A stretch of DNA of 64,000 nucleotides from a virus: IMG/VR virus record IMGVR_UViG_3300005190_000020. The stretch is one strand, 5' to 3'. This document shows positions 10,428 through 35,358 of this stretch, one piece after another. Each line of letters begins with the position of its first letter. The first letter of the stretch is position 1. Made by a program: the position numbers and the translations under genes. The notes beneath the pieces are model-generated. The model had not been told where the DNA came from and ran no database searches. It was given only the letters and a program-made list of their open reading frames with translations.

Positions 10428-10443
10428 TTTGTTTACCGCAAGG

Positions 10444-10661: not shown

Positions 10662-10667
10662 GTAAAT

Positions 10668-10741: not shown

Positions 10742-10782
10742 GTATGCGTATTCCTTATTTTGTGTCGAAATGTCGAATGAGG

Positions 10783-10920
10783 GCTGACGGATTCGAACCG
10801 CCGTCACCGGCTCCACAAGCCGAAGTAACCGTACCTAACTCGCACCTTTTTACAGGTTAAACATTGTTGGACGGTGAAAGTGGTATCTTTGACCAAACTA
10901 GACAAAGCCCTCGTCGGTGA
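10783..10920 (-). tRNA. tRNA gene with ~55-nt insertion (putative intron); anticodon unresolved
   Basis: 5' part GAGGGCT-TT-GTCT..AGAT and 3' part GGCGG-TTCGAAT-CCGTC-AGCCCTC-A pair as acceptor; insertion ends AAGGTGCGAGTTAGGTACGGTTACTTCGG, alignable with the insertion in 9086-9220. Confidence 0.45.
10820..10846 (-). repeat. tRNA-associated conserved element, family 2 copy (minus reading GGTGCGAGTTAGGTACGGTTACTTCGG)
   Basis: Second member of the GGTGCGAGT...GTTACTTCGG subfamily. Confidence 0.55.
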
Positions 10921-10924
10921 GTGT

Positions 10925-10998
10925 TGGATTCGAACCAACGACTTCCTACGCCCAAGGTAGGAGTCCTCGCCCACTAGACCAACTCACCATAGGTGAAA
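10925..10998 (-). tRNA. tRNA-Pro (anticodon UGG)
   Basis: Acceptor GGTGAGT/ACTCACC, anticodon arm CCTAC-CTTGGGC-GTAGG, T-arm GTTGG-TTCGAAT-CCAAC. Confidence 0.8.
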
Positions 10999-11097
10999 CA
11001 GTGGGAAACAGCGTTTAGTTGGAGGATTTAAAGTAGGGTCCCGCCTCCTGCCACAGGCGGTTGTGTTCGAAGTATCTGTTTCCCTTGCACCTGTTTA

Positions 11098-11172
11098 TGC
11101 CGCCGACGAGATTTGAACTCGTGTCGCTTGCTCGAAAGGCAAGCATGATTGACCTGACTACACTATGGCGGC
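11098..11172 (-). tRNA. tRNA-Glu (anticodon UUC), typical archaeal Glu-type sequence
   Basis: GCCGCCA..GTGTAGTCAGGTCAATCATGC..CTTGC-CTTTCGA-GCAAG..ACGAG-TTCAAAT-CTCGT. Confidence 0.7.
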
Positions 11173-11177
11173 AGTAT

Positions 11178-11250
11178 CGCCCGGCACGGGATTTGAACCC
11201 GTGTCCACCGGCTGACAACCGACGATGATGAGCCACTACACTAGCCGAGC
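11178..11250 (-). tRNA. tRNA-Asp (anticodon GUC)
   Basis: Acceptor GCTCGGC/GCCGGGC, anticodon arm GTCGG-TTGTCAG-CCGGT, T-arm ACGGG-TTCAAAT-CCCGT. Confidence 0.7.
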
Positions 11251-11358
11251 AAAAAAGGTTAGAGTGCTACAGGATAGCTTACGGTTAGAGATTGGTTACT
11301 CTTCCCTCGCGAGGGTTACGGCTTTGCCGTCCGCAGCCCGCTCCCTGCACTCTGTAGA

Positions 11359-11433
11359 TGCTCCCTCTGAGATTTGAACTCAGGACCCAAGACTGAGAAT
11401 CTTGGATGATTGACCGTACTACACCAAGGGAGC
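11359..11433 (-). tRNA. tRNA-Glu (anticodon CUC)
   Basis: Acceptor GCTCCCT/AGGGAGC, anticodon arm CAAGA-TTCTCAG-TCTTG, T-arm CTGAG-TTCAAAT-CTCAG. Confidence 0.75.
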
Positions 11434-11582
11434 ATGTATACATCGTAGAAAAACTTGCTAACCCAATTGTCTTGGGTCGTTAAGAAGTAAAACCTGGATA
11501 GCTTTACCTCTCTTACTGTCCAGCATCTTCTGGTTGCTGGGGTTCAGAGGGTTCTAGGTAAAGCTCTACAAGTGACATAAGT

Positions 11583-11656
11583 GGTATGGACCCTGTCAGA
11601 CTTGAACTGACGGCCTTTCCGTTGCAAACGGAACGCTCTGCCAACTGAGCTAAGGG
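11583..11656 (-). tRNA. tRNA-Ala (anticodon UGC)
   Basis: Acceptor GGGCCCT with G3:U70; anticodon arm TTCCG-TTTGCAA-CGGAA; T-loop TTCAAGT. Confidence 0.8.
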
Positions 11657-11767
11657 CCCGTGGTAAAGGACGGTGATTCTCGGCATCCGCACCTCCTGCA
11701 CCGTTCCTCGAAGCAGGTTGTGGTTCATCGCCTTTTATTTAAAGGTGCTGGGTAAGCACCGTGTTCA

Positions 11768-11838
11768 TGCGCCCAGTGAGAATCGAACTCACGCCACTCG
11801 CTTGGAAGGCGAGTATCTTACCACTTGACCATGGACGC
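11768..11838 (-). tRNA. tRNA-Gly (anticodon UCC)
   Basis: Acceptor GCGTCCA/TGGGCGC, anticodon arm CTCGC-CTTCCAA-GCGAG, T-arm GTGAG-TTCGATT-CTCAC. Confidence 0.7.
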
Positions 11839-11946
11839 TGGTAGTGAAGGGTTGCCATTGAAGGTGAGTCCGTCACAGGCTTTTTCCGTTCGCCTCTGGT
11901 CTACACCCGCAACCCTTCGGTTTAATTCGTGTTAAGGTTCAATAGT

Positions 11947-12022
11947 ATCCGCAGGCCGGACTCGAACCGGCAGCCTGTCGTTTACAAGACGACTGCTCTG
12001 GAACCAATTGAGCTACTACGGA
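11947..12022 (-). tRNA. tRNA-Thr (anticodon UGU); U1:A72 first pair
   Basis: Acceptor TCCGTAG/CTGCGGA, D-arm GCTC..GAGC, anticodon arm GTCGT-CTTGTAA-ACGAC, T-arm GCCGG-TTCGAGT-CCGGC. Confidence 0.7.
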
Positions 12023-12047
12023 ATTGTCTTGACTGTATATTATTATT

Positions 12048-12069
12048 GTCACTTAACTTTTATAAATCC
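12048..12069 (-). promoter_or_regulatory. conserved TATA/BRE-type promoter motif, ~35 nt upstream of tRNA-Thr(UGU) 5' end
   Basis: GTCACTTAACTTTTATAAATCC. Confidence 0.5.
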
Positions 12070-12079
12070 TTTGTGTGGA

Positions 12080-12151
12080 ATCCGGTTGCGAGACTCGAAC
12101 TCGCACCTCCGACATACCAAGTCGGTGTACTGCCTTTGATACTAAACCGGA
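12080..12151 (-). tRNA. tRNA-Thr (anticodon GGU); U1:A72 first pair
   Basis: Acceptor TCCGGTT/AACCGGA, anticodon arm CCGAC-TTGGTAT-GTCGG, T-arm GCGAG-TTCGAGT-CTCGC. Confidence 0.7.
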
Positions 12152-12160
12152 GTAAGTAAG

Positions 12161-12346
12161 TTAGTATGGTGCTACAAAGTCTTCTGCTTCAGGGGTGGTA
12201 CTCATTATTTCGTAGCTCGTTTCTGGTTCGAGGTTGTGGTCTGCCCATGTTTCTGCTTCGCTCCGGTTGTCTGTCTCCGTGGTGAAGCGTACTTCTCCGT
12301 CTACAGCTACAATCCACCTTACTCTGGTGTCTTGATTCATCATCAT
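12161..12346 (-). CDS. small acidic hypothetical protein (61 aa)
   Basis: ORF only; weak. Confidence 0.3.
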   Translation of the reverse strand: MMMNQDTRVRWIVAVDGEVRFTTETDNRSEAETWADHNLEPETSYEIMSTTPEAEDFVAPY

Positions 12347-12451
12347 ATGTATATTTATAGTTACTAACCTTTAAAAATGTGTTTGAGAGTAGGGGTCGAA
12401 TAGTTTGCCGGAACAAAAACTTTTATTATTGTTTAATTTCAAGTAATATGT

Positions 12452-12985
12452 ATGGAAGAAACCGAAAGAACATGGAACGGGAAAACGGTTTACAGAGGTT
12501 CGAAGAACGATTCTCAAAAACAAGACTATGTAAAGAACAATTGTGAGTATTGTGGCGAATATTTCTATGCTCTTTTACAATCTAGGAAAAGAGGAAACGG
12601 GAACTTCTGTAGTCGCTCCTGTAGCGGTAAAAAACAAGCTGAAGAAGGAAACTTAAGCGGCGAGGACAATCCTAATTGGAAAGGCGGTGTTAGTGAAAAC
12701 CATTACGAAAGGAATAAAGAGCAGTATATACAAAGAACTAAGGAAAATAAGTTGAAGAAGAAGAAATTTGTTGAAGACTACAAAAAGGAAAGAGAATGCG
12801 AAGAATGTGGAGAAGGGTTTTATCGCTGTTTACAGTTTCATCATCGTAACCCTGAAGAAAAATTTAAAGGGGTTTCTGAGATGGCAGACCTCAATTATTC
12901 AATAGACAGAATTAAAGACGAAATAGAGAAGTGTGACTTAGTATGTTCTAACTGTCACAGGAAAAGACATTACGAAGAAGAGTAG
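12452..12985 (+). CDS. HNH endonuclease (the only plus-strand gene of the island)
   Basis: CEYCG..C..C zinc finger, DNPNWKGG motif, FHHRN...CDLVCSNCH HNH core. Confidence 0.7.
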   Translation: MEETERTWNGKTVYRGSKNDSQKQDYVKNNCEYCGEYFYALLQSRKRGNGNFCSRSCSGKKQAEEGNLSGEDNPNWKGGVSENHYERNKEQYIQRTKENKLKKKKFVEDYKKERECEECGEGFYRCLQFHHRNPEEKFKGVSEMADLNYSIDRIKDEIEKCDLVCSNCHRKRHYEEE

Positions 12986-13055
12986 GGTGTGAGATTTGAA
13001 CTCACGTAAATCTGCTCTGCAAGCAGACACATATAAACCACTCTGTCAACCCTAC
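12981..13055 (-). tRNA. tRNA-Cys (anticodon GCA)
   Basis: Acceptor GTAGGGT/ACCCTAC, anticodon arm TCTGC-TTGCAGA-GCAGA, T-arm GTGAG-TTCAAAT-CTCAC. Confidence 0.65.
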
Positions 13056-13056
13056 T

Positions 13057-13140
13057 ATAAGCCGAAGTGCGGACTTGAACCGCGTCTTACCTTTACCATG
13101 GATACGGTTTTTCCCAGTTGGCTGTGTACTTAAGCTCGTC
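13057..13140 (-). tRNA. tRNA-like gene (~84 nt, type-II-like length), anticodon unresolved; 3' end contains the ACTTCGG block
   Basis: T-arm CGCGG-TTCAAGT-CCGCA and acceptor-like GCCGACG/CTTCGGC visible; remainder does not fold canonically by hand. Confidence 0.3.
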
Positions 13141-13189
13141 GGCATAGTGAAGGGAAAAGGTGGAGTCGGAATGGACAACTGGTGTTGCC

Positions 13190-13320
13190 CGTAGGCAGTT
13201 TAGTCTGAACTACGAGACTTGCCGAGGTCTCGGAGGGATTTGAACCCTCGACTTTCAACTCTTAAGGTTGACGTTCTAACCGAAGTAGCCGACTTCCTTA
13301 GCCCTTCAAAGGGTGATTTC
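13190..13320 (-). other. split/permuted tRNA-like locus: family-1 element, then T-arm GAGGG-TTCAAAT-CCCTC + CGAGACC, then 5'-half-like AGTCTCG-TA-AGTT..AACT followed by a 7-bp/ACCA-tetraloop hairpin
   Basis: Minus-strand reading; acceptor halves CGAGACC / AGTCTCG nearly complementary; no canonical anticodon arm found. Confidence 0.3.
13280..13306 (-). repeat. tRNA-associated conserved element, family 1 copy (minus reading AAGGGCTAAGGAAGTCGGCTACTTCGG)
   Basis: Shares AGGGC(A/T)AG-purine run-...TTACTTCGG with copies at 9054, 10233, 13446. Confidence 0.5.
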
Positions 13321-13379
13321 CATCAACTGCGACCGTCTACGTTGGACGGCTAAAAATGTTAAGGGAATAGTGAGAGCGA

Positions 13380-13476
13380 GATTCAGAGCTTTTCCGCCTG
13401 CTCCTATAAGGGATAAGGATTCGAACCTTCCAGGTGATTCTGTAATCGAAGTAACTCGTTCTCTAGCCCTTGTAAA
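13380..13476 (-). other. tRNA 3'-half-like fragment (T-arm GGAAGG-TTCGAAT-CCTTAT) preceded by family-1 element; no matching 5' half identified
   Basis: Minus reading: ...GAGTTACTTCG-ATTACAGAATCAC-CTGGAAGGTTCGAATCCTTATCCCTTAT...; lies immediately 3' of tRNA-Trp. Confidence 0.3.
13446..13470 (-). repeat. tRNA-associated conserved element, family 1 copy (minus reading AAGGGCTAGAGAACGAGTTACTTCGA)
   Basis: Sixth copy of the motif family. Confidence 0.5.
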
Positions 13477-13551
13477 TGGGAGAGACAGGACTCGAACCTG
13501 TATCCACTGCTCTGGAGGCAGCAGCTCGGCCAATTGAGGCTATACACTCCC
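13477..13551 (-). tRNA. tRNA-Trp (anticodon CCA), apparently intron-less
   Basis: Acceptor GGGAGTG/CTCTCCC (one mismatch), anticodon arm GCTGC-CTCCAGA-GCAGT, T-arm ACAGG-TTCGAGT-CCTGT. Confidence 0.6.
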
Positions 13552-25290: not shown

Positions 25291-25749
25291 TTAATCTCCA
25301 TAATGCTTGGCGGTAATCTTGCTTACCTGGTTTAAAAGGTCTGGCTGTGGATTGGCTACAGGCCTTACTTTTTTGATTCTGTTGACGTTTTCTTTAAGCG
25401 GTTGATTGTTTTTAAGACTCATCAACGCTGCTGCTACTGCCACGCTTCTGCTTGAACCCATTGCGCAGTGGACAAGCATTGAGACTTCTTCTTCTTTGGC
25501 TTGTTTGTGAAGTTTCTCTGCTGTTTCAACTATTGTCTTGATTAGGAAGTCTGGGTTGCTTCCGTCGTCTGCGATTGGGATGTGGAAGTAATTGGTTTTC
25601 TTGATTGTTTCGTAGCCTGGTGCTGAGTCTCTTTCCGGTCCGCTACCTGAAAGGTTCAGAATGTATTCTATGTCGTTTCTTCTTTGTTTTGCGTCGTTGT
25701 CTGCGTCGCTTACATCGCCTACGAATAAGTTGTCGTATACTTGTTTCAT
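25291..25749 (-). CDS. dual-specificity / Cys-based protein-tyrosine-phosphatase-fold phosphatase
   Basis: VHCAMGSSRS = HCX5R(S) P-loop signature; 152 aa; promoter motif 25763-25781. Confidence 0.65.
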   Translation of the reverse strand: MKQVYDNLFVGDVSDADNDAKQRRNDIEYILNLSGSGPERDSAPGYETIKKTNYFHIPIADDGSNPDFLIKTIVETAEKLHKQAKEEEVSMLVHCAMGSSRSVAVAAALMSLKNNQPLKENVNRIKKVRPVANPQPDLLNQVSKITAKHYGD

Positions 25750-25839
25750 AATTATTTTTCCTCTATTAAACTTTTTATATGTTTGGATGCTACTTTTGTG
25801 TTGTCGTAATCATAGCTATCAAAAAAGAAAAAAGAGGGT

Positions 25840-27375
25840 TTACTGGTATGCCTCTATTTCCATTGGCTCCCAGTTTTTAATGTCGTTCAAGAGTGCTTCC
25901 TCGTTTTCAGCGTGCTGAATGTAGTCAAGCATGTCGCTTGTCCATCCCTGCAACTCGTAAACGTCAGGGTAGCCTTCAGGGAAGCTTAGGTCTCCGTAAC
26001 TTGAAAGGTCTACAAGGTAAAGACTTGCGGACGGATTAACTTCTTCCTTGTAAGCCTCCCACTCGTCTTTCAAGGTTTGTGCGTCGTGACTCCAACCTGC
26101 GTTTGAATCCCATAACTGTAGGTCGGAGAACATAACTACACGTTTGTAGCTCTCTCCTTTCTGCCGGATGTCTCTGATTGCTTTGTAAGCGTTTGTGCTT
26201 CCTCCTGTCTGAGCATCCATGATTTTCTGCTGAAGCTCAAGTGTCGGAGTGTTGTAGTGAGCTTTGACGCGTTTGTAACGCTTACCGAATGCTCCTGTGT
26301 CGCTTCCGTGACGCATCATCATGGCTCCGAACAAGGCACCGATTTCTGCGTGCTGTAGGTCGGATTCCTGACTGATTCCTACTCCGTACATGGAGCCGGA
26401 TGTGTCTACAGCTGTGAATGTGTCGCTTAGGTTGTCGTCTAAACTGTCTGATGCTTTGTCGATTGCCTCTGAAAGTTTTTCTTCGATGACTGGGTCGCTG
26501 ACTCCTGCGTCCTTAACTGCTTTGTAGGACTGGTAGAATCTGAAAGGCCAAATCTGTGCGTGTTCAACCCATTCTAGGTCGATGTCGCCTACGATTTCCT
26601 CTGATTCAAGCCCTGCTTCTTTCATGTTTCGAATGTTTCTGATTCGGGCGAACAGTCCCATGTCGTCTAGGACTTCTCTCCATGCTTCGGCGTTGTTGCC
26701 TTTCTCGGAGATAACTGTTTCCCATGTCTTGCCTTGTGACTCGTTTAGAGGCTGTACGTCTGGGTACTTGTCTAGGTCGCCTCTCATCAGTCTTTCGAAG
26801 ATTTCGTCTCTTAACTCGTCTTGAGGGTTTGGGTGAGTCCTGTTGATTACGTCTCTAATGTTGACTTCACGGTTGTCGTTGTCGTACTTGTCGTACTGGT
26901 ATTTGTCGAATTTGTGAAGTGCTTTGTTGATTCCTTTTTTCAAAGGCTTCGGCATTGTTCCGCCTTGTAGCTGGTCCCATGCTGCTACGACTGTTGCTGG
27001 TTCGTCGGCTCTGTCGATAATGTTTCCAGCCCATTTTTCGACGTATTCCTTGGTTCTGTCGTCGCCTGCTGCAAGGACTAGAAGGACTTGTGAAATGTCT
27101 CTTAATCCCATGCTTTGTCTGGCGTATGCAGCCAGTTTCAAAGCAAACTCAGGGTTTTCGTCTGCTACTTCTTCGAAGGCTCGTTCAACGCTTCTAAGCT
27201 GTTCTTGGTCGTTTTCGTAGTAAGTGTCTTCAAGAAGGTTGTTGATGACGTTTTTAGCCAGGCCTAGTTCAGGTGTGTCTGGCTCGTATGCTTCGCCACC
27301 TTCATAGTTTGTGGTTTTGGTTCTTTCTGCAACTGTGTCTTTTGTGCTGTTTAGTTCCATTGTGTTGTTTAGCAC
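25840..27375 (-). CDS. vWA-domain protein with large N-terminal helical domain (Ro60/TROVE-like architecture)
   Basis: C-terminal MIDAS-like AVDTSGSM...; ~320-aa alpha-helical N-terminus + ~190-aa vWA, 511 aa total as in Ro60/Rsr. Confidence 0.4.
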   Translation of the reverse strand: MLNNTMELNSTKDTVAERTKTTNYEGGEAYEPDTPELGLAKNVINNLLEDTYYENDQEQLRSVERAFEEVADENPEFALKLAAYARQSMGLRDISQVLLVLAAGDDRTKEYVEKWAGNIIDRADEPATVVAAWDQLQGGTMPKPLKKGINKALHKFDKYQYDKYDNDNREVNIRDVINRTHPNPQDELRDEIFERLMRGDLDKYPDVQPLNESQGKTWETVISEKGNNAEAWREVLDDMGLFARIRNIRNMKEAGLESEEIVGDIDLEWVEHAQIWPFRFYQSYKAVKDAGVSDPVIEEKLSEAIDKASDSLDDNLSDTFTAVDTSGSMYGVGISQESDLQHAEIGALFGAMMMRHGSDTGAFGKRYKRVKAHYNTPTLELQQKIMDAQTGGSTNAYKAIRDIRQKGESYKRVVMFSDLQLWDSNAGWSHDAQTLKDEWEAYKEEVNPSASLYLVDLSSYGDLSFPEGYPDVYELQGWTSDMLDYIQHAENEEALLNDIKNWEPMEIEAYQ

Positions 27376-27417
27376 CTCTTGTTAGGTGAAAAATGTGTTT
27401 TCGGTAAGTAATTATTA

Positions 27418-27437
27418 GGGATTAACTTTTATAAATG
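27418..27437 (-). promoter_or_regulatory. conserved promoter motif
   Basis: GGGATTAACTTTTATAAATG. Confidence 0.45.
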
Positions 27438-27773
27438 TTGTGTTATTTTCTGTTTAATTAGTTCTCGGTAGGTCATGTGTTTCCGGCCAAGCCAGTCTTC
27501 TTCTTCGGGTGCTCTGTAGAAGTATATTCCAACCCACATAACGAACCGGATTAAACTGATTGTAAATGTTCCCCACAAACCTAGAATTGCTACAGGAAGT
27601 AGAAGAGTTACAGGATAAGTTATAGTGTTCGGCAGGCTTGATTTCCTTGTGTAAATTGTCTGCTTGTCTCTCAAGGCGTTGGCTTGTTGCCCAAGACCTA
27701 TCATGCTGCCGATGCTCATAAGCAGGTCTGCTGTTGCTGCTGTGATTATAATGAATCCGAGGTCGAGAGCCAT
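27429..27773 (-). CDS. membrane protein (114 aa)
   Basis: Three hydrophobic segments. Confidence 0.4.
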   Translation of the reverse strand: MALDLGFIIITAATADLLMSIGSMIGLGQQANALRDKQTIYTRKSSLPNTITYPVTLLLPVAILGLWGTFTISLIRFVMWVGIYFYRAPEEEDWLGRKHMTYRELIKQKITQHL

Positions 27774-28048
27774 TATGTCAGCCCTCGTCTTTTTGCTTCT
27801 AGGAATGCGTCTGCGTCATCCCACTCCATCGCTGTATGTAAAGTGGTGTCAGGATGGTCTGGTGCGTTGTAGTTATGGCTTATACGGACTTCGTACCTGT
27901 CGTCTGCTTCTTCGATGTCTTCGAACGTGGTCTGGTTTTCCCAGGTGTCTTCGATGTATAGAAGGTCTCTGTCCATGTTTACAAGGGTTTTTTCGTAAGC
28001 TGTTTCGTCAACTTCTTTCCATTCATAGTCTTCGATAGAATCTAACAT
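27773..28048 (-). CDS. hypothetical protein (91 aa)
   Basis: ORF. Confidence 0.35.
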   Translation of the reverse strand: MLDSIEDYEWKEVDETAYEKTLVNMDRDLLYIEDTWENQTTFEDIEEADDRYEVRISHNYNAPDHPDTTLHTAMEWDDADAFLEAKRRGLT

Positions 28049-28200
28049 AGATAATATGTTTTGGTTAGTGACTTTTTTATTTCCTTTGCCACCGCAGTCT
28101 TGTTTTACAGATGGGGCAGAAGCCGGAGGGGTTGAAGGAAAATTCTCTTTCCTCTCCGACTTGTGGACAGTACACCACCATTTTCTTTCTTATGAATCCT

Positions 28201-28938
28201 TTACGTGTCTTGTAGTGCATTGGTCTCTGTCTCCCCGCCTTTACGCCAGTGAAGTTCTTCTGTTTGAACATGGTTTTCACGCACGCATTTAGCCATGTTC
28301 TCAGTTAATTCATCCAGCGGGAATCCTTTAGTGTTTCTTACGACGTAGCCTTCTCTTGTGTCTCCGTACTTGCTTTCTCCTTCAGGCATTTTGTCTACGA
28401 TACTCATGTACCTTCTGAAGTCGTCTCCTATTTCTAAAAATTCTTCGAGGTCTGTTATACGGAATTTGTCTATTACTGGTACGGTTGGCAACCCTACTTC
28501 TTCTGCTATTGCTTCTACTTCGTACCACGGCAGCCATTCTCCGTCGTAAAGCACTCCGAATACTAGGAAGTAGCTTGGAAGGTTTTCATAATCTATGCTG
28601 TGCCGTGCGTAAAGGTATTCTCCGAAGATTGCGAAGTCTTCAGGTATTTTGTGCATCAGTTCTTCTCTGTGCCTTTTCTTGAGATAGTCCCATTCTTCTC
28701 TATGCGGTTCACCTGAGTGGCTCCGGGCATAGACTTTGTCACTGGTTAGGCAGGCGTTTGCCCCGTCCATCTTCTCTGTTATCACTACTTCGTTCATAAA
28801 GTTTTGTTTCGTGAACATTTCTTCGGTTTCTGATTTGCTAAGCCATTTCTGTTGCCGTGCGTCTTCTTGACTCCAAGGCAGGTGTTTCATGCTCGGCATT
28901 TTAGGTACTTCGTGTCCATGTTCGTTATTCTGTGTCAT
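28201..28938 (-). CDS. covalent nucleotidyltransferase of the ligase family, most likely an RNA ligase (Rnl2/DRB0094-like size)
   Basis: Motif I VITEKMDGANA (KxDG), motif III-like IFGEYLY, motif IV EGYVVRN; only 245 aa and a bona fide DNA ligase is encoded elsewhere (62383-63315). Confidence 0.5.
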   Translation of the reverse strand: MTQNNEHGHEVPKMPSMKHLPWSQEDARQQKWLSKSETEEMFTKQNFMNEVVITEKMDGANACLTSDKVYARSHSGEPHREEWDYLKKRHREELMHKIPEDFAIFGEYLYARHSIDYENLPSYFLVFGVLYDGEWLPWYEVEAIAEEVGLPTVPVIDKFRITDLEEFLEIGDDFRRYMSIVDKMPEGESKYGDTREGYVVRNTKGFPLDELTENMAKCVRENHVQTEELHWRKGGETETNALQDT

Positions 28939-28962
28939 TTTGTCAACTCCTCCTAAGAAAAG

Positions 28963-29634
28963 TTAGTCATCTAACTCTTTTAAAACCTTGTGAAAGAAAA
29001 GCTGTTTTTCAGCGTTTTCCGGTCCGAAGTAGCTCGTGGCTGCTAACGGATTTACCTTGGTTGTACGACTAAAGTTTTCGTCTCCTTGAATCTCTGCTTC
29101 TTCTTTTGAGATGGTTTTCAGTTCTTCTTGGGCTATACCCTCAGGAGATACGCACACTGCGTTGGCGTAGTCTGATACAGGTTCTTCGCTGATAAGTGTT
29201 ATGTCGATGTCGTGACGGTTGCTTATCTGTTTTGCCACGCCTATAAGCAGGCCGAAGTTGTCTGTAGGAATTTTCTCATGTATACAAGGCGCTTCTCCTG
29301 CTTTTTCAAGCAGTTCTTGTTTGGCTTCTTCCTCTAGATTGTCTCTGTATTTTCTAAGCTCTTTCACGTTTTCAAACAAGACTTTTGATGCTTTGGGAGC
29401 GCCTTTGGCAAGTGCTGTAAGATATACTGGTTCTGTATCTGGTTCGTATTCTTTGTCAAGGTAGTCGCATAGTTTTTTCGTTGTTACCTCTAGTTCTGCG
29501 TGTTCAATTCTTAGTTTTTTAACGCCTCTTGTTAGTTTTTCCATGTCGGGTCTGAACTTGTTTTCTTCTATCTCTATGCCTTCTGCTATACCTCTGCTGA
29601 TTTCTTTGAACAAATCGTCTTTTTTGTAGTCCAT
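28963..29634 (-). CDS. hypothetical protein (223 aa)
   Basis: ORF. Confidence 0.4.
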   Translation of the reverse strand: MDYKKDDLFKEISRGIAEGIEIEENKFRPDMEKLTRGVKKLRIEHAELEVTTKKLCDYLDKEYEPDTEPVYLTALAKGAPKASKVLFENVKELRKYRDNLEEEAKQELLEKAGEAPCIHEKIPTDNFGLLIGVAKQISNRHDIDITLISEEPVSDYANAVCVSPEGIAQEELKTISKEEAEIQGDENFSRTTKVNPLAATSYFGPENAEKQLFFHKVLKELDD

Positions 29635-29894
29635 TATTCTTCCACCTTTAAACTTATGTCAATGCTTGGAACTACTGTTACCTCCACCTCTGTCTGGCAT
29701 TCACCGCAGTAAAGATACTCTGTGTTTTCTTCGTTCCATACAGGGTATGAAAGGTAGCGGTCTGTCCAGTCAAGTGTTTTCCGTGTTCCGCAGCCTGGAC
29801 AAGTCCATTCTACTTTGTACGGTATTCTCTGCCTTTTCGCTCCTTTAACGTATTTCCCGTCTTCTTGCTCTACTTTCTCTACTTCAATATCCAT
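29634..29894 (-). CDS. zinc-ribbon protein (86 aa)
   Basis: CPGCG...CGECQ. Confidence 0.4.
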   Translation of the reverse strand: MDIEVEKVEQEDGKYVKGAKRQRIPYKVEWTCPGCGTRKTLDWTDRYLSYPVWNEENTEYLYCGECQTEVEVTVVPSIDISLKVEE

Positions 29895-29963
29895 GTTTTA
29901 CCTCCTCCGCAAACATTATAACGATGAGAACTATCACTGTTGAAGAAAAGGCGAGGGCGGCGT

Positions 29964-31361
29964 TCATTCATCTCCCTCGCTGATTTCCTTCATCATGTGG
30001 ACACGGTCGTTTAAAATGGTTTGTCCAAGTGCTTCGCCGTCAAAGTCTTCGATTTCTTTGTCTCTCTGGTCTGCGACGTATTCTGCGTCAACGATTCTTA
30101 TTGCTTCTCTCGCCATTTCAAGTCTTTGCTCAATCCGGTTGAAGGCGGTCATGTCTACTGGTACTTCTTTTTCTCTTCCTGCGTTGTCAGCCTTGGCTAA
30201 GTCGATAAGTTCTTCCTGTGTCGCACCTTTGTTGCTGTCAAGCCTTTGAACGAGTTCAATGACTTTTGACTCTCTCATACAGGATTCCTGTGCTGGGTCT
30301 ACGTTGAAAATCCTCATGTGTTCTCTGCATGCGTCTTTCATTTTTTCTTTGTACTCGTTGCTTAACCTCCATTTCTCGGCTAGGTCTTCTGCTAGTTCAA
30401 CTCCTAGTTTGTCGTGGCCTCCTGTGTTCTCTTCGTTTCTGGTTTCCAGTTTGCCGATGTCGTGGACTAAGGCCATCATCAGTTTGTCGTTGTTGCCGAG
30501 GTCTAGGTCTGCCATTTCGTCTACGACCATCATGGTGTGTGTCCAGCAGTCTCCTTCGCCGTGGTGTTCTTCTGGTCCGGCACTGATGTAACGTAGCTTG
30601 GTTAGTTCCGGTGCGATGACGTGTAAGGCGTTTACTTCCATGCAGACTTCCCAGAATCGTCTTGGGTCTTCTGCTTGTTTCATTGCTTTGTGTATTTCGT
30701 CTCCGATTCTTTCGCCTGGAACTTCTTCAAGTTTCGGACTGGTTAACTGGGCGATTTCAATTGTTTCGTCTGCTATTTCGAACTCTGGCATCCGTGCTGC
30801 GAAACGTGCCAATCTTAGGACGCGTACAGGGTCTTCTTTGAATGCCTGTGATGTGTGTCTCAACACTTTTTCGTCTAGGTCTTTGATTGGGTTGATTGGT
30901 CTTTCCGGCCTGATTTCGTCTTCTTCGAAGTTGTCAAGCAGTGGGAAGTGGTAGTCTTGTTTACCTGGCTCCATTGCAATGCTGTTTATGGTTAGGTCTC
31001 TTCGTCTAAGGTCTGCTTCCAAGCTTACGTTTTCTGTGTTTACTTCGAAGTCGTGGTATCCGTCGCCTGTGTTTTCTTCTGTCCGTGCCAGTGCGAACTC
31101 GTTTTTCTGGTTGTCGTGGAATACTGGGAAGCTCTGTGCGTCTATTTTGTGGAATCCTCTGTCCAGCATTTCTTCTTCCGTTTCTTCTGTGACAACGAAG
31201 TCGTAGTCCTCTGTTTCCTTACCTATTAAAGAGTCTCTTACCTGTCCTCCTACTGCGAACCATTTAAGGTCTTCGAAGTCTATTCCTTCTTGGTTTTCTA
31301 TTTCTTCGTGTTTTGGCCGTATGTCGATTGGGTCGAAATCTGTCATTTTATCATTCCTCAC
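29964..31361 (-). CDS. cca: class II tRNA nucleotidyltransferase (CCA-adding enzyme) with C-terminal HD domain
   Basis: GGQVRD (GGxVRD), DYDF, RRDLTINS class-II head motifs; HDIGK HD motif; 465 aa. Confidence 0.8.
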   Translation of the reverse strand: MRNDKMTDFDPIDIRPKHEEIENQEGIDFEDLKWFAVGGQVRDSLIGKETEDYDFVVTEETEEEMLDRGFHKIDAQSFPVFHDNQKNEFALARTEENTGDGYHDFEVNTENVSLEADLRRRDLTINSIAMEPGKQDYHFPLLDNFEEDEIRPERPINPIKDLDEKVLRHTSQAFKEDPVRVLRLARFAARMPEFEIADETIEIAQLTSPKLEEVPGERIGDEIHKAMKQAEDPRRFWEVCMEVNALHVIAPELTKLRYISAGPEEHHGEGDCWTHTMMVVDEMADLDLGNNDKLMMALVHDIGKLETRNEENTGGHDKLGVELAEDLAEKWRLSNEYKEKMKDACREHMRIFNVDPAQESCMRESKVIELVQRLDSNKGATQEELIDLAKADNAGREKEVPVDMTAFNRIEQRLEMAREAIRIVDAEYVADQRDKEIEDFDGEALGQTILNDRVHMMKEISEGDE

Positions 31362-32884: not shown

Positions 32885-32904
32885 CTGTTTAACTCTTATA
32901 AACC
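32885..32904 (-). promoter_or_regulatory. conserved promoter motif
   Basis: CTGTTTAACTCTTATAAACC. Confidence 0.5.
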
Positions 32905-33298: not shown

Positions 33299-34087
33299 CT
33301 AATCTTTATAAATGTATTTGTCGGGCCACTTGTATTCAAAACCTTTTGGAGGATTACCCATCCACTTCCATACTTTCTTTGAGTCTTCAACGCTAAATTC
33401 TATTATACAGTTTACTTTACCTGCTCCATTTTTTCTTTTGTGTTCATTCCATCGAGCTATTTCTACAGGTGTGGAATCAAACATTTTTCCTACTTTTTCT
33501 TTCTCTGCTCGTTCGTTTGACAAGCCTATTGCTATGTAATTGTTATTATTTGTGTTATGCCATGTGCCGTCACAGCAGAACCAGTGCTTTAATATTTTTG
33601 GAGTTAACTTTATTTCAGGGAACTTTTTTTCACCGCTTTCATACCATTTTTCAAAGTTTGATAGTTCTGGATGTTTTCTTCCGTTGAGAACATATAAGTC
33701 TGAGTAATTTTCTTCAGAAGCGTTTTCACTCAACCCTGTTTTTCTTGCGTGTCTGGCGGATTCTTCTGCTGTTGCTTTCCTGCTGATTTTGCTTGACAAA
33801 AACGTTAGTTCGCTGTCTAAGTATTCAAGGTATTTTCTATTAGTATTTGTTACGCATATTGAAGGATTTCCAGCTTTGTTGATGTATCCATCTCCCATCA
33901 ATACACCTGTAATTATTTCTTTTTGTTTTTCAGAAATTTCTGGGTAATTACAGCTAGATTTATTCCAGTGAAGAGATATGTTCTTGTAGTTGTTTCCACA
34001 TTGTTTACATTTCATAAGAGAAAAAAGGTGGAAGGTGAAAGTGAAGTTCGGGAAAACCCACCTTGCTGGGTTATGACATTGGGGCAA
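33299..34087 (-). CDS. LAGLIDADG homing endonuclease (two-motif, monomeric type); start uncertain (34087 or internal Met ~34015)
   Basis: ITGVLMGDGYI and WFCCDGTW LAGLIDADG-type motifs; AT-rich. Confidence 0.6.
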   Translation of the reverse strand: MPQCHNPARWVFPNFTFTFHLFSLMKCKQCGNNYKNISLHWNKSSCNYPEISEKQKEIITGVLMGDGYINKAGNPSICVTNTNRKYLEYLDSELTFLSSKISRKATAEESARHARKTGLSENASEENYSDLYVLNGRKHPELSNFEKWYESGEKKFPEIKLTPKILKHWFCCDGTWHNTNNNNYIAIGLSNERAEKEKVGKMFDSTPVEIARWNEHKRKNGAGKVNCIIEFSVEDSKKVWKWMGNPPKGFEYKWPDKYIYKD

Positions 34088-34143
34088 TTGTTCTGGATTG
34101 CGAAGTAACCGAACTTCTCGCCCTTCTATAATAACATTATTAG

Positions 34144-34163
34144 TGTTTAACTTTTATAAACCT
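34144..34163 (-). promoter_or_regulatory. conserved promoter motif
   Basis: GTGTTTAACTTTTATAAACC. Confidence 0.5.
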
Positions 34164-34255: not shown

Positions 34256-34462
34256 TTAGGTATACGTGGTCGTGCATTCTCTCCATCCCTCAACTACTTT
34301 GTCTTTCGAAGGTTTTTCCTGGCTTACCCACCACATTCCGTGGCCGTACTTCGTGTTGTATTCATCGGCTATGCTGTGCGCTCTTTCCTTGCTTATCCCT
34401 TGCCACGGAGTGATTGGCCTGTATTCTTCGTCTTCGCCTTGCCTGTACCAGATTGTTGTCAT
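34256..34462 (-). CDS. hypothetical protein (68 aa)
   Basis: ORF. Confidence 0.3.
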   Translation of the reverse strand: MTTIWYRQGEDEEYRPITPWQGISKERAHSIADEYNTKYGHGMWWVSQEKPSKDKVVEGWRECTTTYT

Positions 34463-35358
34463 CGTGGAACCACGCTTCTAATCAGGTCGTTGACTTTTTC
34501 ACGGCTGATTCCTCGGACATCGTGTTCTGAATGATTTATTTCTTCGCCTTTCTCGATTTCGTTGCTCATCCAGTCCCAGAGTTCTTGGTCTGCGATTTCA
34601 CGGCTTCCTTCTCCGTTTGTCTTGGCACGGATAAATTCGTCGAGGTAGGTTTTAACCATGTCTGGAACATTTAACTGGTCAAGTTCCTCATCAACGAATC
34701 TTTGGAAGTCCAGTGGCGGCCTCTGGTGTGTCTCTAAGACGTACTTGGCATAGGTCAAACCTCTTAGAATGTATAGGTGTCGCTTTATTGAGAGGTCGTT
34801 CCGGTTGTCGATGTATTTGTTGTAGTTTGCCTTACCCATCTCCCTGTAATGCCCCCAGAGTGCGATAGGTTTAAATTCGTCGTTGGCGTGTTGCCTGATT
34901 AATTCCAGGTTGCCTTTGACGTTAGGCATGTCGTTAACCCTCATAAGTTTTGGGTCTTTCATTTTTTCTTCGCTTGGCTGTTCGAAGATTTTCTCGCCTT
35001 TCCAAACCCAGTAAGGTTCTAGTTCGTAGTACGTGATTCCGCTGTTCAACCATTCAATCATGGAAGGATTGGACTTGTTCAACAGTTCTGCGAAGCGTTT
35101 AATGTTCCAACCGATTAGTTCGAACTCTTCTCCGTCCAGCATGAATTTGCGGTCGATGTTCTGCGTGTATCCTCCTAGTTCGATGTAGTCCATTGGCTCT
35201 TGACTGAAAACCATTCCTGCGTCCATGTCGCTTGTCTCTGAGTCAAGGTTCCATGCCCGTGAACCGTAGTCACGGACGGAAAGGACTTTGATTTCGTACT
35301 TGTTTTCAAGGTATCGAATCATTTCGTGGATGTCGTCAAATTCTTTGTGGTCTGTCAT
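34459..35358 (-). CDS. Pol-beta-superfamily nucleotidyltransferase
   Basis: YGSRAWNLDSETSDMDAG = GS-x9-DxD nucleotidyltransferase signature; 299 aa. Confidence 0.5.
   Translation of the reverse strand: MTDHKEFDDIHEMIRYLENKYEIKVLSVRDYGSRAWNLDSETSDMDAGMVFSQEPMDYIELGGYTQNIDRKFMLDGEEFELIGWNIKRFAELLNKSNPSMIEWLNSGITYYELEPYWVWKGEKIFEQPSEEKMKDPKLMRVNDMPNVKGNLELIRQHANDEFKPIALWGHYREMGKANYNKYIDNRNDLSIKRHLYILRGLTYAKYVLETHQRPPLDFQRFVDEELDQLNVPDMVKTYLDEFIRAKTNGEGSREIADQELWDWMSNEIEKGEEINHSEHDVRGISREKVNDLIRSVVPR

What the first reader, a model, noticed from the sequence alone, without database searches (positions are those of the whole stretch)
25291..31361. RNA end-healing/sealing style gene cluster next to the tRNA arsenal
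Four genes lie within 6 kb on one strand. The first is a class II (bacterial/eukaryal-type) CCA-adding enzyme with a C-terminal HD phosphohydrolase domain (GGxVRD, RRDLTIN, HDIGK). Archaea normally use class I enzymes, so the gene is foreign to the presumed host lineage. The second is a small KxDG nucleotidyltransferase best explained as an RNA ligase, since a separate ATP-dependent DNA ligase is encoded at 62383. The third is a CX5R phosphatase. The fourth is a 511-aa vWA protein whose N-terminal helical domain plus C-terminal vWA mimics Ro60/Rsr architecture. These activities recall T4 Pnkp/Rnl tRNA repair and bacterial Rsr/RtcB RNA-repair operons. Together with the CCA-less tRNA genes they suggest a virus-carried tRNA maturation and repair toolkit. 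If the vWA protein is a true Ro60 homolog, a Y-RNA-like ncRNA with a tRNA-like T-arm module might exist. The orphan T-arm fragments at 13.2-13.5 kb are candidates.
Basis: partly seen in the sequence, partly recalled or inferred. Interest (0 to 1): 0.8.

Follow-up and report, generated by a model that had tools for sequence, protein, structure and literature searches.

The report
Viral RNA-repair genes plus Y RNAs
A salt-loving archaeal virus carries a Ro60-type RNA-binding protein, an RNA ligase, a bacterial-type tRNA CCA-adding enzyme and a phosphatase side by side, together with six small "Y RNA"-like partner RNAs hidden among its tRNA genes, a kind of RNA that the papers I could search do not report for archaea or their viruses.

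Summary
Four genes on the minus strand encode a class II CCA-adding enzyme with an HD domain, a 245-aa stand-alone RNA ligase, a true Ro60/TROVE+vWA protein and a dual-specificity-type Cys phosphatase. An RlaP nucleotidyltransferase lies 3 kb upstream. The window is a distant relative of halovirus HGTV-1, which has all these gene types but scattered. Three metagenomic relatives keep the order RlaP, CCA, (ligase), TROVE, DSP.

The "orphan T-arms" at 13.2-13.5 kb belong to a family of six small RNAs in the window. Each has:
- a terminal stem;
- an internal loop, 5' GGGC-N-AR and 3' UUUUCCC;
- an 8-9 bp helix whose sequence differs between copies but stays complementary;
- the motif YUACUUCG;
- a variable module, which in three copies is a permuted tRNA-like fold.

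The same architecture sits directly upstream of TROVE genes in HGTV-1 and in 42 of 53 haloarchaeal loci, always on the same strand. In two bacterial loci it coincides with Rfam YrlA hits. These are most likely Y RNAs.

That the module repairs or surveys tRNA is inferred, not shown. The phosphatase's substrate is unknown. The genes are a new member of a known kind; the RNAs are a new variant.

The parts
29964..31361 (-). Class II (bacterial-type) CCA-adding enzyme with C-terminal HD phosphohydrolase domain
   Evidence: Pfam PF01743/PF12627/PF01966, NCBIfam PRK10885 3e-79, PHROG 2244 2e-93. PDB hits are all class II enzymes. Motifs GGQVRD, DYD, RRD and EDPVR are in the sequence. 36% identical to HGTV-1 ORF242.
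28201..28938 (-). Stand-alone nucleotidyltransferase-domain RNA ligase (PF09414)
   Evidence: Pfam 4.4e-34. Motifs I (K56xDG), III (FGE), IV (EGYVV) and V (AKCVR) are conserved in 25 homologs. AF2 model pLDDT 83; Foldseek top hits are T4 Rnl2 (7e-06), Rnl3 and NgrRnl. 34% identical to the C-terminal part of HGTV-1 ORF233.
25840..27375 (-). Ro60/Rsr ortholog (TROVE ring domain + vWA with MIDAS)
   Evidence: Pfam TROVE 1.1e-21. phiLo Ro60 9KOP/9L5Y E 5e-36 over residues 19-497. 49% identical to HGTV-1 ORF129. About 50% identical to TROVE proteins of many Halobacteria.
25291..25749 (-). Dual-specificity-type cysteine phosphatase (HCx5R); substrate unknown
   Evidence: Pfam DSPc 7e-15. PDB hits are DUSP16, DUSP26, DUSP13 and similar. 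Follows TROVE in all three relatives. 30% identical to HGTV-1 ORF179.
34459..35358 (-). RlaP, the RNA-ligase-associated Pol-beta nucleotidyltransferase
   Evidence: Pfam PF10127 1.1e-33. Ortholog of HGTV-1 ORF126 (1e-41). Conserved upstream of the CCA gene in L125 and L126.
34021..34126 (-). Y-like RNA R1, no tRNA-like module; own promoter and U-run terminator
   Evidence: Profile score 38.6 against a null maximum of 25.1. Helix AAGUUCGG/CCGAACUU. Orthologs at L125 2595-2705 and L126 4125-4245, with a compensatory hairpin.
13352..13471 (-). Y-like RNA C3, module with a T-arm
   Evidence: Score 30.7. Helix AGAACGAG/CUCGCUCU. Ortholog at L213 4154-4307.
13149..13307 (-). Y-like RNA C1, YrlA-type: anticodon-like arm, T-arm, closed acceptor hairpin, D-arm
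   Evidence: Weak Rfam YrlA hit at 13169-13282 (19.8 bits, E 0.21 in an 801-nt search). Score 28.9. Ortholog at L213 4439-4585 with compensatory changes in the anticodon-like stem.
10991..11092 (-). Y-like RNA C5, no T-arm; lies between tRNA-Glu and tRNA-Pro
   Evidence: Score 31.8. Helix GGGAAACAG/CUGUUUCCC, outer stem AGGUG/CACCU.
10133..10258 (-). Y-like RNA C2: T-arm, 7-bp closed acceptor hairpin, D-arm, anticodon-like arm
   Evidence: Score 43.1. Fold z-score -3.5. Ortholog at L213 6542-6677 with compensatory changes in the acceptor and D stems.
8958..9079 (-). Y-like RNA C4, no T-arm; ends 4 nt before tRNA-Val
   Evidence: Score 36.2. Helix GAAAUCAG/CUGAUUUC.
32887..32904 (-). Promoter-like motif heading the unit that contains the CCA enzyme and the ligase
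   Evidence: GGTTTATAAGAGTTAAAC. The motif has 17 matches in the window, all on the - strand, against 0.11 expected.
27420..27437 (-). Promoter-like motif (3 mismatches) directly upstream of TROVE, suggesting that TROVE+DSP is a separate unit
34145..34162 (-). Promoter-like motif of R1 (exact match)
6136..13549 (-). tRNA gene array in which C1-C5 are embedded
   Evidence: ARAGORN and Rfam. tRNA-Trp at 13477-13549.
27429..29894 (-). Four small ORFs of unknown function between the named genes: an 86-aa Zn-ribbon protein, a 223-aa protein, a 91-aa protein and a 114-aa membrane protein. This span also contains the ligase.
   Evidence: no significant family apart from weak Zn-ribbon hits.

Best explanation
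The region is the protein half of a virus-encoded RNA (mainly tRNA) maintenance system in a haloarchaeal tailed virus related to HGTV-1.

Shown by sequence analysis:
- The genes encode an E. coli-type CCA-adding/repair enzyme with an HD domain, an ATP-type RNA ligase, a Ro60 ortholog, a Cys-phosphatase and, just upstream, RlaP.
- The same genome carries six small RNAs with the Y-RNA architecture. The 5' and 3' ends pair into a stem that is interrupted by a conserved internal loop. A variable module follows, which in three copies is a circularly permuted tRNA mimic.

Inferred:
- Ro60 binds the conserved stem and loop of these RNAs to form RNPs, as in bacteria and in Thermus phage phiLo.
- The Y RNAs inside the tRNA array are co-transcribed with tRNAs and released when RNase P and tRNase Z cut out the flanking tRNAs.
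- The RNP acts as a platform or gate that recognises damaged or misfolded tRNA-like RNAs.
- The ligase and RlaP rejoin or refill broken ends.
- The CCA/HD enzyme finishes and repairs 3' ends of the 25 CCA-less viral tRNAs.
- The phosphatase may trim end phosphates.
- The purpose is to keep the virus's own translation supply working, probably against host nucleases that target tRNA.
For: Gene identities.

Linkage:
- The order RlaP, CCA, (ligase), TROVE, DSP is kept in L125, L126 and L128, whose TROVE proteins are 73-78% identical.
- At the syntenic site L125 and L128 carry a different RNA-ligase paralog, so 'a ligase here' is conserved rather than one particular gene.
- L128 adds RtcB next to the CCA gene. 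In HGTV-1, RtcB, TROVE and RlaP lie within 9 kb of each other.

Y RNAs:
- The pair AGGGCnARR + 8-9 nt + YTACTTCG occurs 5 times on the - strand.
- Every copy has its own complementary 8-9 bp partner followed by UUUUCCC.
- On 18 sequences, 8 of 8 helix pairs change on both sides, 95.8% of cells pair, and 0 of 500 shuffles reach the observed value.
- A profile trained only on RNAs next to TROVE genes in other genomes scores six window sites at 28.9-43.1. The null maximum was 25.1 in 60 simulated windows.
- In 53 haloarchaeal TROVE loci all 84 hits lie upstream on the TROVE strand, which is 18.8% of the search space, and none lie elsewhere.
- HGTV-1 has a hit 13 nt upstream of its TROVE gene.
- In bacterial loci L201 and L205 the same architecture coincides with Rfam YrlA hits (E 2e-08 and 4e-07).
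- Orthologs of C1, C2 and C3 in L213 keep their stems through compensatory changes.

Literature:
- Phage Ro60 binds phage-encoded Y-like RNAs (PMC12135203).
- M. smegmatis YrlA is cut by RNase P and receives CCA (PMC4201824).
- Jumbo phages combine tRNAs, RNA ligases, RlaP, CCA enzyme and TROVE as predicted RNA repair (PMC7824862).
Against: - No biochemical or expression data exist; binding of these RNAs to this Ro60 is inferred.
- In this window the Y-like RNAs are not adjacent to the TROVE gene. R1 is 6.6 kb away and the others are 12-18 kb away.
- The Rfam YrlA model does not detect the haloarchaeal RNAs, and C1 scores only 19.8 bits against a gathering score of 69.
- The helix covariation is partly circular, because my first scanner required complementarity.
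- The relatives that keep the synteny are close, so conserved order may reflect descent alone. In HGTV-1 the CCA, DSP and ligase genes are scattered.
- No polynucleotide kinase or RtcB is present in these 64 kb.
- The phosphatase resembles protein DUSPs.
- The ligase lacks the extra domain that T4 Rnl2 needs for full nick sealing.
Confidence: 0.6

Rival explanations
1. The T-arm-containing elements (C1, C2) are circularly permuted tRNA genes of the kind known in Cyanidioschyzon and Thermofilum. On this reading the transcript is cut at a bulge-helix-bulge motif, circularised by a ligase, opened at the acceptor stem and CCA-tailed to give working tRNAs. The ligase and the CCA enzyme would be there for that pathway, not for Ro60.
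For: - The order T-arm, complementary acceptor strands (6-7 bp), D-arm is the permuted order.
- C1 and C2 also have anticodon-like arms with canonical 7-nt loops, CUUAAGA and CUUGUAA.
- The C1 loop is conserved in L213 while its stem changes in a compensatory way.
- Resemblance of YrlA to permuted pre-tRNAs is noted in 10.1101/312249.
Against: - By inspection there is no 3-nt bulge / 4-bp helix / 3-nt bulge motif at the terminal stems. The internal loop is 3-4 nt opposite 6-8 nt at one position.
- The C2 'anticodon' loop is not conserved in L213 (CUAAGUAAA).
- tRNA-Thr(UGU) and tRNA-Leu(UAA) genes already exist in the window.
- Three family members (R1, C4, C5) and many TROVE-adjacent ones keep the terminal domain but have no tRNA-like module.
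- The family tracks TROVE genes.
Confidence: 0.1
2. Ro60 and its Y RNAs work in RNA degradation or host takeover rather than repair. As in the Deinococcus RYPER complex, and as proposed for phage phiLo, the RNP would tether a host exoribonuclease to degrade structured host RNAs or to blunt host defence RNAs. The neighbouring CCA enzyme, ligase and phosphatase would be independent auxiliary genes.
For: - The best-characterised activity of bacterial Rsr/Y RNA is gating PNPase (PMC4201824).
- phiLo Ro60-Yrl forms complexes with host PNPase (PMC12135203).
- TROVE+DSP appear to have their own promoter, separate from the unit holding CCA and the ligase.
- In HGTV-1 the genes are dispersed.
Against: - The repeated co-location of TROVE with tRNA arrays, RlaP, RtcB and ligases in this viral lineage and in HGTV-1 points to tRNA-centred functions.
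- No nuclease partner is identifiable in the window.
- From my own knowledge, not tested here, haloarchaea lack PNPase.
Confidence: 0.2
3. The adjacency is not functional. These are unrelated accessory genes that sit together in one small viral clade by descent, and the phosphatase is a protein phosphatase used for host manipulation.
For: - The relatives with the same order are close (73-78% TROVE identity).
- L126 lacks a ligase between CCA and TROVE.
- The DSP's nearest solved relatives are protein DUSPs.
- Cellular TROVE loci have no DSP, CCA or ligase neighbours.
Against: - A different ligase paralog occupies the same slot in L125 and L128.
- RlaP, by name and published analysis, associates with RNA ligases (PMC7824862).
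- All the parts act on RNA ends or bind RNA, apart from the unresolved DSP.
Confidence: 0.1

Closest known systems
Bacterial Rsr (Ro60) with YrlA/YrlB Y RNAs, e.g. the Salmonella rsr-yrlBA-rtcBA operon and M. smegmatis rsr-yrlA (Chen et al. 2014, PMC4201824)
   Same: - TROVE+vWA protein.
- Small RNAs whose ends form a stem with a conserved internal loop.
- Some copies carry a module with T-arm, closed acceptor stem, D-arm; others (YrlB-like) do not.
- Several RNA copies per locus and association with RNA ligase genes.
- The motif UUACUUCG after the helix is shared with bacterial YrlAs in L201 and L205.
   Different: - Archaeal virus or archaeal host.
- Not detected by the Rfam YrlA model.
- The 5' loop motif is GGC(G/U/A)AR rather than GNCGAA.
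- C1 and C2 keep an additional anticodon-like arm, so all four tRNA arms are present in permuted order.
- In this window the RNAs lie inside a tRNA array far from the Ro60 gene.
- The ligase is ATP-type (PF09414), not RtcB.
Thermus phage phiLo Ro60 with Yrl1/Yrl2 (PMC12135203; PDB 9KOP, 9L5Y)
   Same: A virus-encoded Ro60 (E 5e-36 to this protein) together with virus-encoded Y-like RNAs.
   Different: - Bacterial virus.
- Its two Yrls lie immediately upstream of the gene.
- It is proposed to hijack host PNPase.
- That paper reports no linked CCA enzyme, ligase, DSP or RlaP.
Halovirus HGTV-1 (Halomagnusviridae) tRNA-metabolism gene set (PMC8651126)
   Same: - Closest sequenced virus.
- Orthologs of TROVE (49%), CCA enzyme (36%), ligase (34%), DSP (30%) and RlaP (31%).
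- A large tRNA complement.
- A Y-like RNA 13 nt upstream of its TROVE gene, found here.
   Different: - In HGTV-1 the genes are spread over about 55 kb, and only RtcB, TROVE and RlaP are near each other.
- TROVE/Ro60 was not among the terms I searched in that paper, and the passages returned do not mention it. The GenBank record has no feature at the site of the Y-like RNA.
Jumbo-phage RNA-repair systems: tRNAs + Rnl/RtcB ligases + RlaP + CCA-adding enzyme + ROT/TROVE (Iyer et al. 2021, PMC7824862, which cites Burroughs and Aravind 2016 for these predictions; that paper was not available to me)
   Same: The same parts list and the same predicted logic: counteracting attacks on the translation apparatus.
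   Different: - Archaeal virus of normal size.
- Compact linear arrangement.
- Includes a DSP-type phosphatase instead of the usual kinase/phosphoesterase end-healing enzymes.
T4 Pnkp/Rnl1 tRNA repair
   Same: A phage-encoded ligase restores broken tRNA. This is an analogy of purpose only.
   Different: - No Pnkp homolog is present.
- The ligase belongs to a different family (PF09414, Rnl2-like fold).
- No known cognate anticodon nuclease.

Membership tests
Ro60/Rsr (TROVE) proteins | TROVE domain | tested here: met
   Pfam PF05731 1.1e-21, 78 bits against a cut-off of 23.
Ro60/Rsr (TROVE) proteins | C-terminal vWA domain with MIDAS motif DxSxS | tested here: met
   DTSGS at residues 324-328, invariant in 14 homologs. 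PF25045 vWA_Ro60 is recorded for close homologs.
Ro60/Rsr (TROVE) proteins | Full-length similarity to an experimentally validated Ro60 | tested here: met
   phmmer E 5e-36, residues 19-497 aligned to 19-491 of phiLo Ro60 (9KOP/9L5Y).
Ro60/Rsr (TROVE) proteins | Ring-shaped fold that binds Y RNA | not tested
   No structure was predicted for this protein. Binding cannot be tested with these tools.
Y RNA (YrlA/YrlB type) | 5' and 3' ends pair into a long stem interrupted by a conserved internal loop | tested here: met
   Two helices, 89% of cells paired, 13 of 14 pairs changed on both sides, 0 of 500 shuffles as high. Caveat: selection bias for helix 2. An independent profile test gave six hits above the null.
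Y RNA (YrlA/YrlB type) | 5'-strand motif GNCGAA(N)G | tested here: inconclusive
   R1 has GGCGAG. Cellular haloarchaeal copies have GUCGAG. C1-C5 have GGCUAA, GGCAAG, GGCUAG or GUGCAAG. The motif is similar but not identical.
Y RNA (YrlA/YrlB type) | tRNA-like module: T-arm, closed acceptor stem, D-arm | tested here: met
   Met for C1 and C2 and supported by compensatory changes in L213. C3 has only a T-arm. R1, C4 and C5 have none (YrlB-like).
Y RNA (YrlA/YrlB type) | Encoded next to a Ro60 gene | tested here: met
   Met for the family: HGTV-1 and 42 of 53 haloarchaeal loci, with 84 of 84 hits upstream on the same strand. Not met for the window's own copies, which lie 6.6-18 kb away.
Y RNA (YrlA/YrlB type) | Reaches the Rfam RF02553 gathering score | tested here: not met
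   C1 scores 19.8 bits against 69. The other copies and the cellular haloarchaeal copies have no hit at E<=1.
Class II CCA-adding enzyme, E. coli Cca type | Pol-beta head domain with GGxVRD, DxD, RRD and templating EDxxR motifs | tested here: met
   PF01743 1.3e-16. GGQVRD, DYD, RRD and EDPVR can be read in the translation.
Class II CCA-adding enzyme, E. coli Cca type | C-terminal HD phosphohydrolase domain | tested here: met
   PF01966 1.1e-06 and TIGR00277 HDIG 1.1e-06.
Class II CCA-adding enzyme, E. coli Cca type | Passes the NCBIfam equivalog cut-off; adds CCA rather than CC or A only | tested here: not met
   PRK10885 scores 266.7 bits against a cut-off of 451. The top PDB hits include A-adding and CC-adding enzymes. 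Specificity is not testable here.
ATP-dependent RNA ligases (PF09414, Rnl2-like) | Nucleotidyltransferase motifs I, III, IV and V | tested here: met
   K56, D58, G59, E107, E196, G197, K217 and V219 are invariant.
ATP-dependent RNA ligases (PF09414, Rnl2-like) | Fold closest to RNA ligases rather than DNA ligases or capping enzymes | tested here: met
   The first 21 Foldseek hits are RNA ligases, counting 3qwu, which is deposited as a putative DNA ligase; I take it to be Rnl3-like from its similarity to Pab1020, which was not tested. These hits have E 7e-06 to 2e-04. ASFV DNA ligase appears at 1.7e-04 and the other DNA ligases at >=1e-02.
ATP-dependent RNA ligases (PF09414, Rnl2-like) | Accessory domain (T4 Rnl2 C-domain or Rnl5 N-domain) | tested here: not met
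   The protein is 245 aa, with only a ~50-aa N-terminal extension. Relatives L125 and L128 carry a paralog that has a C-terminal domain.
Cys-based dual-specificity phosphatases | HCx5R(S/T) P-loop within the DSPc fold | tested here: met
   HCAMGSSRS; PF00782 7e-15.
RNA 5'-phosphatase subgroup of DSPs (BVP/PIR1/DUSP11) | Specific similarity to that subgroup | tested here: not met
   None of the 48 PDB matches belongs to that subgroup; all are protein DUSPs.
Permuted tRNA genes | Bulge-helix-bulge motif formed by the transcript termini | tested here: not met
   Inspection of the terminal stems of C1 and C2: the internal loop is asymmetric and no 4-bp central helix is flanked by 3-nt bulges.

The most novel reading that the evidence does not exclude
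The tRNA-shaped Y RNAs may be active players, not passive scaffolds. C1 and C2 have 6-7 bp closed acceptor stems. These could be opened by RNase P and tRNase Z and CCA-tailed by the virus's own class II enzyme, as happens to M. smegmatis YrlA. They could then serve as decoys or sensors for host nucleases that target tRNA. Ro60, the ligase and RlaP would reseal whatever gets cut. That would make this a dedicated archaeal-virus counter-defence built around tRNA mimicry. The C1 'anticodon' loop CUUAAGA is conserved while its stem co-varies, which would then mark the tRNA being mimicked.
Probability: 0.12. Interest if true: 0.85.

Novelty: new variant of a known kind. Interest (0 to 1): 0.66.

Why it matters
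In the papers I could search, Ro60 and its Y RNAs have been characterised in animals, bacteria and a few bacteriophages. I found no description of archaeal Y RNAs there, though that library is incomplete. Here a recognisable Y-RNA family turns up in a haloarchaeal virus, in HGTV-1 and next to TROVE genes in dozens of Halobacteria. In each case it is tied to tRNA gene arrays.

This gives a concrete, testable set of RNA partners for archaeal Ro60. It also provides culturable systems, HGTV-1/Halogranum and the TROVE islands of haloarchaea, in which to ask what Ro60-Y RNPs do with tRNAs. It shows that existing covariance models miss this branch. And it adds an archaeal example to the picture of viruses carrying their own tRNA repair and maturation kits.

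Tried and rejected
- Megablast of the 6-kb region against phage records found no match. The virus is known only through distant protein similarity.
- The search for related loci with the single TROVE protein in IMG/VR found nothing.
- A loose DNA pattern (T-loop, gap, GTAGTTCAG) in IMG/VR returned 120 loci, but it simply matches adjacent tRNA genes. I did not use it.
- Rfam found no Y_RNA or YrlA hit in the whole window at gathering score or at E<=10. YrlA surfaced weakly only when 801 nt were searched.
- A covariance model built from the joined 5' and 3' terminal segments found none of the real copies, because their 47-109 nt modules exceed the model's window. I replaced it with a two-part profile scan with simulated nulls.
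- The first rigid version of that scan missed copies whose 3' loop differs by 1 nt.
- My first scanner, with relaxed criteria, gives about 20 chance hits per 500 kb, so its raw hits alone are not evidence.
- I looked for bulge-helix-bulge motifs at the terminal stems and found none.
- I considered that YUACUUCG closes a UUCG tetraloop hairpin or forms a D-arm. Local pairing is inconsistent between copies, whereas the long-range helix is present in every copy.
- I tested the ~300-nt conserved non-coding RNA for RNase P or SRP identity and found no Rfam hit.
- Searched for RtcB, LysRS and the second HGTV-1 ligase type in the window; all are absent.

Full report
**What the window is.** The proteins are strongly acidic and nearly all genes lie on the minus strand. 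There is no nucleotide match to any deposited phage. The TROVE protein is 49% identical to ORF129 of Halogranum tailed virus 1 (HGTV-1, Halomagnusviridae). The RlaP, CCA, ligase and phosphatase genes also have their best viral counterparts there, at 30-36% identity. The window is therefore a haloarchaeal tailed virus distantly related to HGTV-1. It carries at least 28 tRNA genes, and 25 of the 27 called by ARAGORN lack an encoded CCA.

**The observation.**
- The 465-aa protein has the class II Pol-beta head, the RNA-binding body and an HD domain. It aligns end to end with the E. coli-type 'multifunctional CCA addition/repair protein' model (3e-79, below the equivalog cut-off). Its solved relatives are all class II enzymes. 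GGQVRD, DYD, RRD, EDPVR and HDIGK are readable in the sequence.
- The 245-aa protein is a PF09414 RNA ligase (4.4e-34) with motifs I, III, IV and V intact.
  - It belongs to a large family of ~210-245 aa stand-alone enzymes.
  - An AlphaFold model (pLDDT 83) finds T4 Rnl2 first. The Rnl3 enzymes of Palaeococcus, Pyrococcus and Methanobacterium and Naegleria Rnl5 follow. Apart from the ASFV ligase, DNA ligases score about 100-1000 times worse.
- The 511-aa protein is a genuine Ro60. It has a TROVE domain (1.1e-21), a MIDAS motif DTSGS and a full-length match (5e-36) to the crystallised Ro60 of Thermus phage phiLo.
- The 152-aa protein is a DSP-fold Cys phosphatase. Its nearest solved relatives are ordinary protein DUSPs, and none of the RNA 5'-phosphatase subgroup appears. 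Whether it acts on nucleic acid remains open.

- An RlaP gene (RNA-ligase-associated Pol-beta nucleotidyltransferase, PF10127, 1e-33) lies at 34459-35358.
- A very regular promoter-like motif, GGTTTATAAAAGTTAAAC, occurs 17 times, always on the minus strand, against 0.11 expected. From this motif I infer separate transcription units: one for R1 (see below), one from 32904 that runs through the CCA enzyme and the ligase, and one from 27437 that covers TROVE and the phosphatase.
- Three metagenomic relatives (TROVE 73-78% identical) keep the order RlaP, CCA, (ligase), TROVE, DSP, HNH-repeat, RNR, RadA.
  - L128 adds RtcB and a methyltransferase beside the CCA gene.
  - L126 has no ligase in the slot.
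  - L125 and L128 have a different ligase paralog there, with a C-terminal domain, equivalent to HGTV-1 ORF217. The window's ligase is equivalent to the C-terminal part of ORF233.
- In HGTV-1 all these gene types are present but spread out. Only RtcB, TROVE and RlaP are close to each other. Its CCA enzyme, RNA ligases and RtcB were noted in the literature (PMC8651126).

**The Y RNAs.** Rfam finds no Y RNA in the whole window. When only 13.0-13.8 kb is searched, a weak YrlA match appears at 13169-13282 (19.8 bits). It rests on a T-arm, a closed acceptor-like hairpin and a D-arm in that order. A second element with the same order lies at 10.2 kb.

Comparing these with a conserved non-coding stretch downstream of RlaP revealed a shared frame:
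1. 5' (A)GGGC-N-AR;
2. an 8-9 nt strand;
3. YUACUUCG;
4. a variable module;
5. the complementary strand;
6. (A/C)NYUUUU;
7. CCCU at the 3' end.

The paired 5' motifs occur five times on the minus strand. Each copy has its own complementary helix:
- AAGUUCGG/CCGAACUU
- AGAACGAG/CUCGCUCU
- GAAGUCGG/CCGAC-UCC
- AAGGAGAC/GUCUCUUU
- GAAAUCAG/CUGAUUUC.

**Link to Ro60.** The same frame lies immediately upstream of TROVE genes, on the same strand, in several other places:
- the Haloprofundus salinisoli chromosome and two other contigs;
- Haloarchaeobius, and three tandem copies in an uncultured archaeon;
- 13 nt upstream of the HGTV-1 TROVE gene, in a gap with no annotated feature.

In two bacterial loci my hits coincide with Rfam YrlA matches (E 2e-08 and 4e-07), and the motif UUACUUCG is identical there.

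On 18 sequences the two helices show 89% pairing, 13 of 14 pairs changed on both sides, and no shuffle or slid register comes close. My first scanner demanded complementarity, so this is partly circular. I therefore trained a two-part profile only on eight TROVE-adjacent RNAs from other genomes and applied it to the window. Six minus-strand sites scored 28.9-43.1. The maximum over 60 simulated windows was 25.1, and the best plus-strand hit scored 23.8.

Applied to 53 haloarchaeal TROVE loci, the profile gave 84 hits. All 84 lie upstream on the TROVE strand, which is 18.8% of the search space, and none lie elsewhere. 39 of the 50 non-training loci are positive. Many of these loci are related to one another, so they are not independent. 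These cellular loci have a stereotyped layout: a tRNA array, then 3-4 tandem Y-like RNAs, then tRNA-Arg, then TROVE. The last Y-like RNA is a textbook YrlA shape.

**The six window copies (all minus strand).**

| Copy | Coordinates | Notes |
|---|---|---|
| R1 | 34126-34021 | own promoter, U-run terminator |
| C3 | 13471-13352 | T-arm |
| C1 | 13307-13149 | YrlA-type |
| C5 | 11092-10991 | no T-arm |
| C2 | 10258-10133 | T-arm, acceptor hairpin, D-arm, anticodon-like arm |
| C4 | 9079-8958 | no T-arm |

C1-C5 sit inside the tRNA array. C2, C4 and C5 end 2-4 nt before a tRNA, which suggests co-transcription and release by tRNA-processing enzymes; this is an inference. A syntenic metagenomic contig (L213) has orthologs of C3, C1 and C2. 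Compensatory changes occur in the acceptor hairpin, the D stem and the anticodon-like stem. The C1 loop CUUAAG is conserved, whereas the C2 'anticodon' loop is not.

**Rival reading: permuted tRNA genes.** C1 and C2 contain all four tRNA arms in permuted order, so they could in principle be precursors of working tRNAs. Four points argue against this. I found no bulge-helix-bulge motif. The C2 anticodon loop drifts. Half of the family has no tRNA-like module. And the conserved part of the family is the terminal stem-loop that tracks TROVE genes. I give this reading about 10%.

**What is known and what is new.** Phage RNA-repair kits made of tRNAs, ligases, RlaP, CCA enzyme and TROVE 'with a tRNA-like partner' have been described for jumbo phages (PMC7824862). 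Phage Y-like RNAs and their binding to a phage Ro60 are shown for Thermus phage phiLo (PMC12135203) and predicted for other phages (PMC4201824). The protein cluster is therefore a new, unusually compact member of a known kind. The searchable literature contains no description of Y RNAs in archaea or archaeal viruses (the library is incomplete). The Rfam model does not detect them. The haloarchaeal/viral RNAs are thus a new variant of the YrlA/YrlB class. They are distinguished by their association with tRNA arrays and, in this virus, by their dispersal within the array.

**Limits.**
- Function is inferred throughout.
- There is no evidence on expression, binding, ligase substrate or phosphatase substrate.
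- Synteny conservation comes from close relatives.
- The window ends at 64 kb, so RtcB or a kinase may lie elsewhere in the genome.

Noticed in passing
window 32985-33280 (- strand); L125 2706-3110; L126 4262-4590: A ~300-nt conserved, structured non-coding region ends in a U-run and lies between Y-like RNA R1 and the promoter of the CCA unit. Its invariant core is GUGG.GU.GGAGACCGUCAGACGGCA...UAAGUCCGU.UCUG.CC...GACUGGUGUG. The consensus fold has 67 pairs, 7 of them with compensatory changes. It has no Rfam match, so it is an unknown RNA.
   Followed up: partly
window 33299-34015 (- strand): A LAGLIDADG homing endonuclease gene is inserted between R1 and the 300-nt RNA in this virus only; it is absent at that site in L125 and L126. 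The ORF as listed (TTG at 34087) overlaps R1, so the real start is probably the ATG at 34015.
   Followed up: partly
L133-L185, e.g. L183 53-4140, L177, L159, L178: In many Halobacteria the TROVE gene sits in an island with 12-17 tRNA genes, 3-4 tandem Y-like RNAs and a tRNA-Arg just upstream. The islands occur on chromosomes and on plasmids. They may be proviral or mobile; this was not checked.
   Followed up: partly
window 9085-9221 and 10777-10844 (- strand); L123 20440-20571: An intron-containing tRNA, an odd low-scoring 'tRNA-His' and the HGTV-1 tRNA-Asp intron all carry GGUGCGAG/GGAGCGA + ~8 nt + UUACUUCG. This is the same 5' signature as the Y-like RNAs, but the matching 3' half is missing. 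Their relationship to the Y family is unexplained.
   Followed up: no
window 13477-13549 (- strand): A tRNA-Trp(CCA) that ARAGORN misses (Rfam 29.9 bits). Its ortholog in L213 (4074-4147) is called normally.
   Followed up: yes
window 47603-48490 (- strand): A 295-aa aRF1/Pelota-like protein (eRF1 domains 1-3) is encoded among the three tRNA-Leu genes. This is a further translation-related viral gene.
   Followed up: no
window, 17 sites, e.g. 34145-34162, 47473-47490: An 18-nt promoter-like motif, GGTTTATAAAAGTTAAAC, is highly conserved, all on the minus strand (17 matches against 0.11 expected). It appears to define the transcription units of this part of the genome.
   Followed up: partly
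L213 4319-4386: The relative L213 has an extra, very short (68 nt) Y-like RNA between its C3 and C1 orthologs. The window has no counterpart.
   Followed up: no
window 53261-55083 (- strand): Adjacent ThiF-family (E1-like) and JAB-like genes suggest a ubiquitin-like modification pair. They are unrelated to the finding.
   Followed up: no
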